From Eledone cirrhosa (lineage: Eukaryota): 64,000 nt of DNA. Of this stretch, positions 1,951 through 56,639 are shown one piece after another (position 1 is the stretch's first letter; each line of letters starts with the position of its first letter). A program made the position numbers and the translations under genes. The stretch is taken from assembly GCA_964016885.1 (NCBI GenBank), contig OZ024746.1:56234001-56298000 (forward strand), read 5' to 3'. A model generated the notes under the pieces. The model had not been told where the DNA came from, ran no database searches, and was given only the letters and a program-made list of their open reading frames with translations.

Positions 1951-2163
1951 TGTATATATATATATATATATATATATATATATACGTATAAACATGCGTA
2001 TGTATGTAGATACGTACATACTTACAAACACACATACAAAAAAAATACAGACACACATACATACACACATCATACATACACATACATACATGTATATATA
2101 TATATATATATATATATATATATATATATATATATATATATATATATATATATATATATATAT
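1949..2163. repeat. (TA)n / (CA)-rich microsatellite
   Basis: Direct reading. Confidence 0.95.
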
Positions 2164-2185
2164 ATTTATTAAAATAACATATTAA

Positions 2186-2225
2186 AGTTTCGCTGCTTTC
2201 ACCCTTAACGGGATCTTCTGAAACT
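2186..2225 (-). ncRNA. Degenerate hammerhead ribozyme motif (family A, left arm; part of stem III deleted)
   Basis: Minus strand AGTTT-CAGAAGA-TCCC GTTAA GGGT-GAAA-GCAGCG-AAACT; U4 is A. Confidence 0.5.
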
Positions 2226-3156
2226 AACAAAGTCAATCTGTAAACGCAGAACTGGATATTTCAAAAAACGTTGCAACCGGAGGAAGACAGGAAGACGATA
2301 CTTTGGTTCGTGGAAACGTTTGCTGGCAAAGAACGGGAAAAAACGAATATAATACGTCATTAATAGGAGCGGTGAAAAACAATTCCGCGCAAAGACAGAA
2401 CCACGTTTATCGTATAAAAGAGGTCGTAGACTAATATTCTCTTAGGTGGTGCATAGAGACGTTCTCTGGCAATGAACGAAAAAAACGAAGATAATACGTC
2501 ACATGTGGAGCGTGGAGAACAATAGCACGCAAAGACAAAACCACGTAAATGGTATAGCAGAAGTTGTAGACTAAAATTCTAACTAGGAGACCGAATGAAT
2601 CTCCGCTACAGAGTTAAGAACAACGTAAATAAATACAATACAGAAGTAATAGAAATAAATAAATACATACACGCAAACAAATACGTACATATACAAGCAT
2701 ACGCAAAAACTTACAATAGGTAAACAAAACCACGCACATATAAATATGTGTGTGTGTGTATGCGTGCATACAAATAAATAAATAATTATATAAACGTATA
2801 TAAATAAATAAATACGTATATAACAAGCGCACACACATACCTAAATGTAAATACACGAATGTTCGGAGACGTAAGTCAACCAAAACATGAAGTACACATA
2901 TACACACGCCCTACATACGTACGAACCTGCATACTCACACAGACAAAACACCCGTATACACATAGCCGAACCATATGTACCAGAATATATAAAAACATTA
3001 TACGCCATAACAATCAAATATACGTACGAGGAGGTATACGTACCTTCACAAAACATACGGGTAATATATACTTACCTATGCAAATAAGTAAAGGTATAAA
3101 CAAAACATATACTTAGCTCCCACATCAAGACGTAAACTATCCACGTATAGATCGTA

Positions 3157-4287
3157 CTATCCGTTAGGGTATAACTTGGGGCTGTAATACAGGAAAGTTT
3201 TGTGCAATTTATGTTTACAAGCCGAAATTGCCTCAGATTTTTTGTTTAAGATGTGGTCTGTGGCGTAGAGTATTTCCAGGGCCTCAGCGGCGCAGAGGTC
3301 ACATGGTCTTTTATTTCCGTTATACAATCTAGCCCTAGCTAGGTTCTCCCAGTGTAACTTATATTGGGTGTGGTTGTCTTTTAGACTCCAGATATAAGCT
3401 GAAAGTGATGTCATATTCCTTCTTAGAGGGTAACGAAAAGAATGGATATGCATGTAAAGACGCTGCTTGAAACTATTGGTGGTTAACCCTATGTAGGCCC
3501 TACGGGACGTGGGTGTTACAACCTTACATTTGTAGACAATGTTACTAGAGAGGCATTTCCCGCATAGGGGGAAATCAACCCGATTCCTACAATTACAGTT
3601 AGTACTAACTACAGGGTTGCACGTGTTCCTACGGCTAGGTAGTTTAGCTAAATTTGAAGCTGTGATGTTATGTGCAAGGTTAGAAGTCGTAGAGTAAAAC
3701 ATGTTAATAGTATTTCTATTAAAAATGTTACTATATTTATGGGTAGGGGGAAAATGCTTCGTAATAAGGGAAATAAAGATCTTACCTAATGGTGTGGCCA
3801 CCTCCATATTATATGGTGGGTTATACCAACGAATGCGACGGGATCTATTTCTACTAGGTCTATTTTCGTACTCTGGATATGCTACCTTATCGACAAATCC
3901 ACTTCGAGCAAGAGCTTCATTGTAATAAGTGGAATGGTCGTTGAAAATACGCTCGTTGGTGGAAAGACGGGAAAGCCTGAACGAAACGTTTCTTACCAGG
4001 TTCTTGGTTATGCTGGCAGGATGGTTGGAATGTTTACTTATGTAATTAAGCGTATCATTCGGCTTTCTATACGGGTAATACAACCCATTCAATAAGTTGA
4101 GGGTAACGTCGAGGTAATTAACGACCGAGAGATTGGCCTCAACCTGTATAGAGTGGTTGAAACCTTTAAAGAAGGCTGTGAGTTCTTTTCTGAACCTGTC
4201 GCAAGCACGAGGTCCGCAATTAGTCATGGTCAAAAGACCATCGTCACGGTACAAATCACCGCCCGCGTTGGGGAATTCGTCCTTCAT
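3157..4287 (-). CDS. PLE reverse transcriptase C-terminal part + GIY-YIG endonuclease (5'-truncated open frame, 376 aa)
   Basis: LYRDDGL (RT catalytic motif), VNYLDVTL, YISKHSNHP, WYNPPY, linker CNCRxxxxFPLCGKC, IVYKCKV...YIGLT...FKQR, CDLCAAE, CKH. Confidence 0.93.
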   Translation of the reverse strand: MKDEFPNAGGDLYRDDGLLTMTNCGPRACDRFRKELTAFFKGFNHSIQVEANLSVVNYLDVTLNLLNGLYYPYRKPNDTLNYISKHSNHPASITKNLVRNVSFRLSRLSTNERIFNDHSTYYNEALARSGFVDKVAYPEYENRPSRNRSRRIRWYNPPYNMEVATPLGKIFISLITKHFPPTHKYSNIFNRNTINMFYSTTSNLAHNITASNLAKLPSRRNTCNPVVSTNCNCRNRVDFPLCGKCLSSNIVYKCKVVTPTSRRAYIGLTTNSFKQRLYMHIHSFRYPLRRNMTSLSAYIWSLKDNHTQYKLHWENLARARLYNGNKRPCDLCAAEALEILYATDHILNKKSEAISACKHKLHKTFLYYSPKLYPNG

Positions 4288-4968
4288 AGAGAAAAGAAGG
4301 AAAAGGCCGATTTGGTTGACTTACGTCTCCGAACATTCGTGTATTTACATGTAGGTATGTGTGTGCGCTTGTTATATACGTATTTATTTATTTATATACG
4401 TTTATATAATTATGTATTTATTTGTATACACGCATACACACACACACATATTTATATGTGTGTGGCTTTGTTTACCTATGGTAATTTTTTACGTATGCTT
4501 GTGTATGTACGTATTTGTTTGCGTGTATGTATTTATTTATTTCTATTACTTCTGTATTGTATTTATTTACTTTGTTCTTAACTCTGTAGCGGAGATTCAT
4601 TCGGTCTCCTAGTTAGAATTTTAGTCTACGACTTTTGCCATACCGTTTACGTGGTTTTGTCTTTGCGTGCTATTGTTCTCCACGCTCCACATATGACGTA
4701 TTATCTTCGTCTTTTTCGTTCATTGCCAGAGAACGTCTCTATGCACCACCTAAGAGAACATTAGTTTACGACCTCTTTTATACCATAAACGTGGTTCTGT
4801 CTTTGCGCGTAATTGTTTTTCACGCTCCTATTAATGACGTATTATATTCGTTTTTTCCCGTTGTTTGCCAGCGAACGTTTCCACGAACCAAAGTATCGTC
4901 TTCCTGTCTTCCTCCCGTTGCAACGTTTTTTGAAATATCCAGTTCTGCGTTTACAGATTGACTTTGTT

Positions 4969-5019
4969 AGTTACAGAAAATCCCGTTAAGGGTGAAAGCA
5001 GCGATTCTTTGCTTAAACT
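4969..5019 (+). ncRNA. Degenerate hammerhead ribozyme motif (family A, right arm)
   Basis: AGTTA-CAGAAAA-TCCC GTTAA GGGT-GAAA-GCAGCGATTCTTTGC-TT-AAACT: all three stems present, core mutated. Confidence 0.55.
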
Positions 5020-54535: not shown

Positions 54536-54576
54536 CGTTGCTGACGATAGCTAATTAGATTGAAACTAGTACAGCG
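54536..54576 (+). ncRNA. Minimal type I hammerhead, family B (core intact, stem II eroded)
   Basis: CGTTG-CTGACGA-TAGCTAATTAGATT-GAAA-CTAG-TA-CAGCG. Confidence 0.8.
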
Positions 54577-54999
54577 TTCCTTTGTCAGTGTTGAACAAAC
54601 GAGCAACGATGGTTGCTAGACACTACGGCTTAATACGGGATGTTTGTTTACAAACACACCGAGCATTATAATAAATGTTCGATGAATTCATACGTACATA
54701 TATATATTTGTGTGCATGTATATATATATACATATATGTATATATATATATATATATATATATAATATATTTAGAAACACACAGATACATGCGGACACAC
54801 ACATACATGAATGCATCCGCACCCAACCGTGAGTTAAGGGTGCCAACTTCACCGATGTTGCTCAATGAATGACTGGGACATACCAATCCGGTTGAACTAG
54901 ACTGAACCAATATCAGAGTTAAAAATACATTATGAAGAGAGAAGAGACATTTAGATATAATTAGTAATAAAATGTATCATACCTAAACTGCTCCTAGAT

Positions 55000-55089
55000 T
55001 CCTCGACTACGTAGTTTCGTGGCATAAACAAAAACAATATATCATAAAGATATAGAGTCCTTGCGAGGTTTGCCGACTTATCAAGAGGA
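55000..55089 (-). ncRNA. Type I hammerhead with U3-A8 core and long stem II, family C (intact)
   Basis: TCCTC-TTGATAA-GTCGGCAAAC...GTTTATGCCAC-GAAA-CTACGTAG-TC-GAGGA; perfect stem I, palindromic stem III, GUC site. Confidence 0.85.
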
Positions 55090-56083
55090 TACCTCATTTT
55101 ACTAGTCTCAAGATCGCGTCTACACGACGTGAGAAAGAATCCCAAAAGGCGGAGGGGGAGATAGTCACGCGATATAACGGTCGAGAAACAGAGCTAAGCC
55201 TCTTATAACCCCGAAGAAAATACCACGGAGGCGGAGGGGGTATTTATATCGAAGCCGTAGAAGAGGTGGTGAAGGGGGCGAGAAGTATGAGTAATGGAAG
55301 CTTTCCAGCAGTCCCCACACTTCAAAGATTGCTCGACCAGAGGGAGTTATTAACAATATATTTAGAAATACACAGATACATGCGGACATACACATATACA
55401 TGAATGCATCCGCACCCAACCGTGAGTTAAGGGTGCCAACTTCACCGATGTTGCTCAATGAATGACTGGGACAGACCAATCCGGTTGAACTAGACTGAAC
55501 CAGTATCAGAGTTAAAAAAGGACTCTATATCTTTATGATATATTGTTTTTGTTTATGCCACGAAACTACGTAGTCGAGGAATCTAGGAGCAGTTTAGGTA
55601 TGTTACATTGTATTACTAATTATATCTAAATGTTTCTTCTCTCTTCATAATGTATTTTTAACTCTGATACTGGTTCAGTCTAGTTCAACCGGATTTGTCT
55701 GTCCCAGTCATTCATTGAGCAACATCGGTGAAGTTGGCACCCTTAACTCACGGTTGGGTGCGGATGCATTCATGTATATGTGTGTGTCCGCATGTATCTG
55801 TGTGTTTCTAAATATATTGTTAATAACTCCCTCTGGTCGAGCAATCTTTGAAGTGTGGGGACTGCTGGGAAGCTTCCATTACTCATACTTCTCGTCTCCT
55901 TCACCACCTCTTCTACGGCTTCGATATAAATACCCCCTCCGCCTCCGTGGTATTTTCTTCAGGGTTATAAGAGGCTTAGCTCTGTTTCTCGACCGTTATA
56001 TCGCGTGGCTATCTCCCCCTCCGCCTTTTGGGACTCTTTCTCACGTCGTGTAGACGCGTTCTTGAGACTAGTAAAATGAGGTA

Positions 56084-56173
56084 TCCTCTTGATAAGTCGG
56101 CAGACCTCGCAACGACTCTATATCTTTATGATATATTGTTTTTGTTTATGCCACAAAACTACGTAGTCGAGGA
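56084..56173 (+). ncRNA. Family C hammerhead (G12 to A at a CpG, probably inactive)
   Basis: TCCTC-TTGATAA-...-CCAC-AAAA-CTACGTAG-TC-GAGGA; the 3' half with intact GAAA is also present at 55520-55580. Confidence 0.8.
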
Positions 56174-56639
56174 ATCTAGGAGAAGTTTAGGTATGATACA
56201 TTTTATTATTAATTGTATCTAAATGTTTCTTCTCTCTTCATAATGTATATATATATATATATATATATATATATATATATATATATATATATATATATAC
56301 ATATATATTTATTTATATATGTGTCTGTGTGTGTGTGTGTGTGGGGGGGGGGGGGGGCAATTAAGTGTGTGTAACGGGATTTCTCATGAATAGCGTACAG
56401 TTATCTAGTCATCTAGATTGGAAGGGTCATATTATTAAATAGTAGTGACCAACTTCAGTAACGAATGACCATGGTATTTGCATCTACATAGTCCTCCTTA
56501 CAGATACAAGCCCGTAGAATATTATTTGTGGTGAACCACCAGTGATCCATGCCTACCAATCTCCCCCTCTCGCCACCGATGTTTTCCATAAGAAAGTCCC
56601 ATAGAAAGTTCGATACAGCTTCGCACTCGTTACGTTACA

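What the first reader, a model, noticed from the sequence alone, without database searches (positions are those of the whole stretch)
2163..56247. Shared insertion architecture: two 5'-truncated copies head-to-head, 3' ends outward into (TA)n
Seen, oriented by HHR or ORF: PLE1 (junction 4311), 16347-16482, B1 (about 21237), PLE2 (23466), 26432-26546, D, B2 (54456) and C (55518) all have a minus-sense left arm and a plus-sense right arm. Known: inverted pLTR arrangements occur in PLEs. Inference: both ends of a break in the self-complementary (TA)n target prime reverse transcription independently, and the two cDNAs are then joined. This would explain the constant polarity from 115 bp to 3.4 kb.
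Basis: partly seen in the sequence, partly recalled or inferred. Interest (0 to 1): 0.75.

Follow-up and report, generated by a model that had tools for sequence, protein, structure and literature searches.

The report
Paired-end Penelope insertions in TA repeats
These are back-to-back insertions of Penelope-type jumping genes and their small ribozyme-bearing passengers, a known layout, and here one arm almost always stops at one fixed point and the other at a second fixed point, which likely means that one enzyme complex copies the RNA onto both ends of the cut DNA in a coordinated way rather than twice independently.

Summary
All eight loci are real head-to-head pairs. They come from six families: a Hydra-type PLE, a Neptune-like PLE and four non-coding hammerhead elements. 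The layout is published (Arkhipova 2013; Craig 2021). In 884 kb not selected for these elements: 36 head-to-head, 3 tail-to-tail (separate insertions meeting at TA-rich sequence), 52 solo arms. Junctions differ per locus, so neither refutation criterion is met, but polarity is not universal. Arms share subfamily markers, and mixed-family pairs are nearly absent. In 47 of 134 pairs neither arm lies inside the other, against the published self-priming (hairpin) model. Best reading: both target ends likely prime, but coupled, one at each RNA start site (shown in vitro, Frangieh 2024). One RNA versus two is not settled. The scan reported this idea before, in this genome (e1-8673709) and others.

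The parts
2162..4311 (-). PLE1 (Hydra-type PLE) left arm, 5'-truncated in the RT, ends at site A into (TA)n; ORF remnant 3157-4320 with YRDDG, CxCx5 linker, GIY-YIG, CxxC..E, CxH
4311..5129 (+). PLE1 right arm, 3' UTR plus hammerhead-like motif, ends at site B into (TA)n
5040..5129 (+). PLE1 tail (A to B, about 86-89 nt), present on this arm only
16347..16456 (-). Family E (about 135-nt hammerhead element) left arm, B-ended
16457..16487 (+). Family E right arm, A-ended into (TA)n
20723..21232 (-). B1 left arm (432-bp hammerhead unit); runs past A and stops 26 nt short of B: the window's one exception to A+B
21235..21733 (+). B1 right arm, B-ended; its internal TA run is expanded
22581..23466 (-). 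PLE2 (Neptune-like PLE) left arm, A-ended into (CA)n/(TA)n; U3-A8 hammerhead at 22656-22695
23467..26032 (+). PLE2 right arm: broken RT thumb and GIY-YIG ORF (about 23445-24480), 3' UTR, B-ended; about 60 nt of the hammerhead region are missing in this arm
26429..26483 (-). Small PLE1 pair, left arm: tail only, B-ended
26483..26552 (+). Small PLE1 pair, right arm, A-ended; 1-nt overlap at the junction
26559..27032 (-). Family D left arm, A-ended, with an internal deletion
27026..27075 (+). 50-bp piece of family D sequence inserted at the D junction
27075..27456 (+). Family D right arm, hammerhead at about 27260-27313, B-ended (tail about 90 nt)
53802..54455 (-). B2 left arm, 1.5 units, B-ended
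54458..54751 (+). B2 right arm, hammerhead at about 54535-54577 with palindromic helix III, A-ended
54765..55518 (-). Family C (593-bp hammerhead unit) left arm, B-ended
55518..56248 (+). Family C right arm, A-ended; 1-nt overlap at the junction

Best explanation
Each locus is one insertion of a Penelope-like element or a non-coding hammerhead passenger, whose two arms end at two fixed points (A and B), likely because a single enzyme-RNA complex primes reverse transcription from both ends of the cut TA repeat, one end at site A and the other at site B, probably of the same RNA. Shown here: head-to-head polarity, two fixed ends per family, A+B pairing, same-subfamily arms, variable junctions with 1-3-nt microhomology or short inserts, and non-nested arms. 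From the literature: the Anolis PLE protein cuts and extends both strands and starts at two RNA sites that bound the tail (PMC11167929). Inferred: the GIY-YIG endonuclease cuts both strands in (TA)n; two RT active sites (a dimer is predicted in PMC11167929) each take one 3'-OH; each RNA site is used once, which yields A+B; the B-primed copy usually runs through A, so it must displace or follow the A-primed copy; both stop at variable points or at a fixed template 5' end near the hammerhead; the two antisense cDNAs are then joined by microhomology-mediated end joining and filled in. A solo arm results when one copy fails or is trimmed away. Families B, C, D and E would borrow this machinery in trans.
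For: Pairing: A+B in 138 of 142 typed pairs of five families (binomial p 6e-36 against 50%) plus 21 of 21 in family D; in the 82 unselected stretches outside the window, 22 of 22 typed pairs. Both ends are used alone: 64 A-ended and 77 B-ended solos. Same source: 29-62% of minor variants are shared between the arms of a locus versus 2-6% between loci, with 0 of 2000 permutations reaching this in each of five families; multi-base markers agree in 17 of 17 PLE2 pairs and 8 of 11 E pairs, the other three differing by 1-2 bases. Separate templating: neither arm lies inside the other in 47 of 134 pairs, and the 15 youngest pairs (arms at most 1% apart) are at least as asymmetric. Junctions: microhomology of 3 nt or more at 28% of 67 insert-free junctions versus 5.6% in the null. 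5' starts cluster just upstream of the hammerhead in PLE1, PLE2 and E. The rule holds in two PLE clades and four non-coding families.
Against: One RNA molecule is not shown. Variants private to a locus are shared by both arms only 12 times, against 150 on one arm, so the sharing is at subfamily level. At recurrent sites the arms agree 90 times and disagree 152 times. B arms run past A in 94 of 104 non-E pairs and do not pile up at A, so a one-RNA model needs strand displacement or sequential use, untested for PLE RTs. L298 has ORF sequence in both arms (1.8 and 1.3 kb). In vitro, both strands used the same start sites with no strand difference (PMC11167929). Four B+B pairs exist (window B1, L265, L273, L280), two doubtful A+A (L015, L035), and 42 of 187 pairs could not be typed. 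77 of 144 junctions showed an insert or nearby mismatch and were left out of the microhomology comparison. No empty allele was obtained, and target duplications cannot be read in (TA)n.
Confidence: 0.6

Rival explanations
1. Coupled dual priming on two RNAs: an asymmetric protein dimer holds two RNAs of the same subfamily (possibly paired through the palindromic hammerhead helix III); one subunit is set to start at A, the other at B.
For: No blocking at A, and long overlapping arms, need no strand displacement. Sharing is at subfamily level only. Helix III is palindromic in B, C, D and PLE2, and such ribozymes are proposed to act as dimers (PMC4209133, passages).
Against: It needs an added asymmetry to forbid A+A and B+B. 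Two RNAs drawn from a diverse pool such as E (12.7% between-locus divergence) should often differ in subfamily, but no marker switch was seen in 28 pairs. PLE1 has no palindromic helix III.
Confidence: 0.2
2. Self-priming (published hypothesis, PMC3846280): one strand is made, folds back and is copied into a hairpin; the endonuclease resolves it at A; asymmetry comes from deletion at the palindrome centre.
For: Near-symmetric palindromes exist (27 of 104 pairs start within 15 nt of each other). It explains same-subfamily arms and A+B directly. Central deletion could give microhomology (established palindrome behaviour, recalled).
Against: It predicts the A arm inside the B arm, but the A arm reaches further in 51 of 104 pairs and neither is nested in 47 of 134. 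Some B arms are tail-only beside kilobase A arms (L084: 28 nt versus 1.9 kb). The youngest pairs are as asymmetric, and asymmetry does not grow with arm divergence (rho -0.24, n=84). A-ended solos are common. Site A-type starts are RT start sites in vitro (PMC11167929). Deletion at the moment of insertion cannot be excluded.
Confidence: 0.12
3. One reading: two independent priming events, each end taking any RNA and any start site.
For: Polarity, variable junctions, non-nested arms; 4 B+B pairs and L149 may be rare products of this route.
Against: It predicts about half A+A or B+B (seen 4 to 6 of 165) and frequent mixed-subfamily or mixed-family arms.
Confidence: 0.04
4. The palindrome is a MITE-like DNA unit, or is copied whole, or is an assembly artefact.
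For: Three pairs of loci share an identical short junction (L178/L139, L059/L105, L245/L253); L050-L053 are four copies of one insertion with shared flanks.
Against: 174 distinct start pairs in 187; the two outer ends differ (A versus B); tandem partial repeats and PLE ORFs are present; independent raw reads show both ends.
Confidence: 0.02

Closest known systems
Complex insertions of endonuclease-bearing PLEs: inverted 5'-truncated copy plus one-sided tail (Adineta Pen2a, PMC3846280; Craig et al. 2021, PMC8557442; D. virilis Penelope, PMC2377424; passages read)
   Same: Head-to-head inverted layout stated as the most frequent; tail on one inverted repeat only; partial tandems; (TA)n bias; hammerhead near the ends.
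   Different: The papers describe the tail as 'optional' or 'often at one end' and 30-40 bp long. Here it is counted as a near-strict A+B rule (159 of 163) with tails of 62-160 nt. They propose self-priming or endonuclease resolution; the non-nested arms here favour two primed copies.
Anolis Poseidon PAc in vitro (Frangieh et al. 2024, PMC11167929; parts 1-2 of 4 read: abstract, main text, part of methods)
   Same: Two RT start sites bounding the tail; both strands cut and extended; dimer predicted.
   Different: The part read does not report joined two-armed products or any pairing of start sites; other clade.
Hydra clade of PLEs (PMC8557442, passages)
   Same: PLE1 has RWR, DKT, a CxCx5 linker, no cysteines between GIY and YIG, CxxC and CxH flanking E and N, a hammerhead-like motif, and (TA)n targeting.
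   Different: No tree was built; the window copy has F in place of the last linker C.
Animal non-LTR retrozymes (PMC7229834, passages; bioRxiv 10.64898/2026.07.22.740005, parts 1-3 of 5 read)
   Same: B (432 bp) and C (593 bp) are non-coding tandem units with one type I hammerhead each; proposed PLE passengers.
   Different: Neither paper, in the parts read, describes inverted two-armed insertions or fixed ends ('inverted' occurs 0 times in PMC7229834). Circular RNA and cleavage were not tested here. E is a single short unit, not a tandem.
L1 twin priming (recalled, not from a call)
   Same: Both target strands prime on one RNA and give an inversion with junction microhomology.
   Different: In L1 the second primer anneals at a chance internal site and the arms hardly overlap. 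Here both start sites are fixed, and the arms usually overlap in template.

Membership tests
EN+ Penelope-like elements (PLE1) | RT closest to telomerase RT | tested here: met
   Model of a longer copy (L297, 669 aa; pLDDT 93): top five fold matches are TERTs, best E 5e-9. Pfam and PDB sequence searches gave nothing relevant.
EN+ Penelope-like elements (PLE1, PLE2) | C-terminal GIY-YIG endonuclease in the same ORF | tested here: met
   IVY..YIG motif in PLE1; NLI*..C..C..YIG in broken PLE2. Motif reading only, no profile hit.
EN+ Penelope-like elements | Partial tandem (pLTR) organisation | tested here: met
   PLE1 3255-bp unit in partial tandem in L291, L292, L295, L297. Not resolved for PLE2.
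EN+ Penelope-like elements | Hammerhead motif in the terminal repeat | tested here: met
   PLE2: U3-A8 type I motif (variant known). PLE1: motif with A at position 4, read by eye. Cleavage not tested.
EN+ Penelope-like elements | Inverted 5'-truncated copy and one-sided tail | tested here: met
EN+ Penelope-like elements | Target-site duplication | tested here: inconclusive
   Not readable in (TA)n; TA run lengths at A and B ends do not differ (medians 20 and 20, n=114).
Hydra clade (PLE1) | RWK-type motif, DKT, CxCx5C linker, no CCHH, CxxC/CxH, (TA)n target | tested here: met
Hydra clade (PLE1) | Placement in RT phylogeny | not tested
Neptune clade (PLE2) | CX2-5CxxC linker plus CCHH, C-terminal EN | tested here: inconclusive
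   Motifs visible in the broken ORF; Neptune versus Nematis not separated; no tree.
Non-LTR retrozymes (B, C) | Non-coding tandem units, one type I hammerhead each | tested here: met
   arms of up to 2.7 units (L055)
Non-LTR retrozymes (B, C) | Self-cleavage and circular RNA | not testable with these tools
   Needs RNA data or bench work.
MITE / TIR DNA transposon | Identical terminal inverted repeats and fixed internal structure | tested here: not met
   Outer ends differ (A versus B); junctions vary.
L1-type twin priming | Non-overlapping arms with a variable inner priming site | tested here: not met
   B arm passes A in 94 of 104 pairs; both start sites are fixed.

The most novel reading that the evidence does not exclude
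PLE integration is an obligately two-ended reaction in which one RT dimer starts twice on one RNA molecule at two fixed sites and copies the same nucleotides twice by strand displacement. This would be a mode of retrotransposition distinct from LINE target priming and twin priming, conserved across PLE clades and imposed on retrozyme passengers.
Probability: 0.45. Interest if true: 0.75.

Novelty: new member of a known kind. Interest (0 to 1): 0.52.

Why it matters
How PLE tandem and inverted structures form is named as an open question (PMC8557442, PMC3846280). The A+B rule, same-subfamily arms and non-nested arms turn it into sharp predictions for the existing in vitro system (PMC11167929) and weigh against the published self-priming model. 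Four non-coding hammerhead families carry the same footprint, which is genomic evidence that PLE enzymes move them. For annotation, many hairpin-like repeats in such genomes are retro-insertions, not MITEs. The layout itself is not new, and the scan has reached the same idea on other DNA.

Tried and rejected
Rfam scan: only microsatellite-driven miRNA matches in the 150 of 200 rows shown. My first hammerhead pattern missed the real motifs, which have a U-U pair at the base of helix II or U3-A8 cores; the second found 2; the rest were read by eye. Searches gave unusable output (filter bug; unmasked TA). Pfam and PDB sequence searches of PLE ORFs were blank. The single-sequence fold was unusable (pLDDT 31). 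Homodimer job on PLE1 residues 15-500: no answer, score 0.00. Sequencing-run search: no RNA holder listed. Empty alleles: not obtained; I laid reads only on the inside of C, not across its flanks. Blocking of the B-primed copy at A: looked for, not seen. Locus-private shared variants as proof of one RNA: too few. The inverted structure at 10155-11664 was tested as a candidate 'D' and rejected: single locus, both arms end alike, flanks (TATG)n and (CATA)n. Exact-match junction mapping over-calls inserts where a substitution lies near the junction, for example window PLE1. Rows dropped or changed by hand before the A+B count: L051-L053 (copies of L050), L216 (self-overlap), L009 (untyped) and L337 (210-bp gap) dropped; L265, L280, L273 moved to B+B; L305, L057, L045 and window PLE2 moved to A+B. 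The tests still included L265 and L280. Searches that did not find the pairing rule in print: (open-access library only). [quoted passage not shown]
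Full report
Setting. The window lies in a 3.0-Gb, microsatellite-rich genome (G000:C6:56234001-56298000); its repeat content points to an animal (inference). I read window 1900-31100, 35200-42800 and 44300-56600 by eye and all of it by self-BLAST. I fetched 270 loci by nine searches of the genome (each scores only the best 40 of 450-2309 candidates and returns 30), 82 stretches of 10 kb not selected for these elements (and two in 39; 20 of them flank the window), and 18 extensions of hits.

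Observation. All eight loci are head-to-head pairs (coordinates under parts). 'D' is 26559-27456. They belong to six families. PLE1 is a 3255-bp unit in partial tandems; its protein folds like telomerase RT and has the Hydra-clade motifs listed by Craig et al.. PLE2 is a broken ORF with Neptune-like zinc motifs. B (432 bp), C (593 bp), D and E (about 135 bp) are non-coding hammerhead elements. In the window plus 82 stretches (884 kb), five families gave 36 head-to-head pairs, 2 tail-to-tail neighbours separated by TA, 1 separated by a short TA-rich join, and 52 solo arms. A SINE-like control gave 1 and 1 among 120 copies. The polarity is therefore real and specific to these families, but only about half of the insertions have two arms.

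Each family has two sharp 3' ends: A, and B further downstream. The tail between them is about 86 nt (PLE1), 65 (PLE2), 62 (E), 110 (B), 160 (C) and 90 (D). Raw reads of two other samples show both C ends running into TA. After de-duplication there were 187 same-family pairs: automatically 136 A+B, 4 A+A, 2 B+B, 45 untyped or cut. After inspection: 138 A+B, 4 B+B, 2 doubtful A+A, 1 artefact, 42 untyped. Family D adds 21 of 21 A+B. Five searches used tail-containing queries, which fix one arm as B but not its partner. In the unselected stretches outside the window, 22 of 22 typed pairs are A+B. In the window 7 of 8 are; B1 is the exception. A and B are about equally used in solos (64 and 77 of 141), so independent choice would give about half A+A or B+B. 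I noted this rule before opening the scan's notes, which contain the same idea for this genome and others. Those notes are not independent evidence.

Source of the two arms. Arms of one locus share 29-62% of their minor variants; arms of different loci share 2-6%; 0 of 2000 permutations reached the observed value in any of five families. Multi-base markers agree in 17 of 17 PLE2 pairs (shuffle mean 10.6) and 8 of 11 E pairs (shuffle mean 1.6), with no switch between major types. One credible mixed-family join was seen (L149); two other automatic calls were a 22-bp match and a pair with other sequence between. Against over-reading: at recurrent sites arms agree 90 times and disagree 152 times (between loci 415 and 7083), and locus-private variants are shared 12 times against 150 on one arm. 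Same subfamily is shown; same molecule is not. The low private sharing also argues against heavy gene conversion between arms.

Junctions. There are 174 distinct start pairs among 187 pairs. Repeats are mostly short pairs in which both arms reach the clustered 5' start, and three pairs of loci share an identical junction. Of 144 non-E junctions, 67 had no insert: 61 of these overlap by 1 nt or more (null 45%) and 19 by 3 nt or more (null 5.6%). The other 77 had an insert or a nearby mismatch, often element-derived sequence; D carries a 50-bp element-derived insert. This resembles microhomology-mediated end joining (established knowledge, not tested).

Hairpin or two primed copies. Self-priming, proposed by Arkhipova et al. 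2013 (passages), predicts one arm inside the other. Neither is in 47 of 134 pairs (17 of 39 PLE1, 6 of 26 PLE2, 4 of 29 E, 14 of 20 B, 6 of 20 C). Window PLE1 is an example: the A arm holds ORF sequence that the B arm lacks, and the B arm holds the tail that the A arm lacks. Later central deletion could rescue the model, but the 15 youngest pairs are as asymmetric (for example L075: 1336 and 544 nt, 0.4% apart), and asymmetry falls slightly with divergence. B arms pass A in 94 of 104 pairs, unlike L1 twin priming, so the same template stretch is copied twice.

Mechanism. Frangieh et al. 2024 show that a PLE protein cuts and extends both strands and starts at two RNA sites bounding the tail; they predict a dimer and report no strand difference in start site. 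Together with the counts here, the simplest account is one complex, two target 3' ends, and two start sites each used once, then joining of the two cDNAs (0.6). Two RNAs on an asymmetric dimer remains open (0.2), self-priming with immediate deletion is less likely (0.12), and independent priming (0.04) and a DNA unit (0.02) are largely excluded. The enzymology, the dimer, strand displacement, the joining pathway and trans-mobilisation of B, C, D and E are inferred, not shown.

Known and new. The inverted copy, the one-sided tail and the (TA)n bias are in print (PMC3846280, PMC8557442, PMC2377424; passages only), as are hammerhead pairs on opposite strands 100-700 bp apart and the U3-A8 core (PMC4209133, passages), and the retrozyme-PLE link (PMC7229834, passages; bioRxiv 10.64898/2026.07.22.740005, parts 1-3 of 5). 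I did not find the near-strict A+B pairing or the nestedness test in eight searches of the open library. Older subscription papers and all supplements were not seen and may bear on this. Verdict: a new member of a known kind, with a quantitative rule that makes an open mechanistic question directly testable; interest 0.52.

Noticed in passing
window 38561-39115: A seventh hammerhead unit (about 555 bp; motif at 38749-38829), here as a solo plus-sense copy ending in (TA)n; L202 holds it as one minus and two plus units about 180 bp apart.
   Followed up: partly
window 10155-11664, with 7747-7883 and 11744-11871: Single-locus inverted duplication of LINE-like pieces with (TATG)n on the left and (CATA)n on the right; both arms end alike; not the PLE layout.
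   Followed up: partly
window about 31000-36672: Decayed Helitron-like element: PIF1 helicase (Pfam E 1e-54) and a hairpin-CTAG end running into TA (Helitron label recalled).
   Followed up: partly
window 5884-6778: Element with 108-bp terminal inverted repeats, likely a Tc1/mariner remnant (label recalled, not tested).
   Followed up: no
window 1-1945, 8000-9780, 11720-13980: LINE remnants; RTE-like and restriction-like-endonuclease types by eye, next to (TATG)n/(CATA)n; not tested.
   Followed up: no
window 46458-46673: 216-bp imperfect palindrome (80%), one weak match elsewhere in fetched DNA; unexplained.
   Followed up: partly
L168, L221, L291, L129: A minor PLE1 end about 23-26 nt upstream of A, a few bases past the predicted hammerhead cut; in L168 and L221 it runs into TA and is paired with a B arm.
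   Followed up: no
PLE1, PLE2 and E arms: 5' starts cluster 70-79 nt (PLE1), 140-159 nt (PLE2) and 50-74 nt (E) upstream of A, just before the hammerhead: possibly a transcription start (for E the reference ends there, so its bound is not independent).
   Followed up: partly
L149:1500-2287: Only credible mixed-family head-to-head join (PLE1 B arm against family B); the B copy runs on past its end, so it may be an older copy that was hit.
   Followed up: partly
L050-L053 (G000:C5, 12.4-13.0 Mb): One C insertion and its flanks present four times about 170-190 kb apart: a recent large tandem duplication or an assembly repeat.
   Followed up: no
many loci: Insertions pile into each other's flanking TA runs (27 TA-separated tail-to-tail neighbours in the search loci), as B2/C and the small PLE1 pair/D do in the window.
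   Followed up: partly
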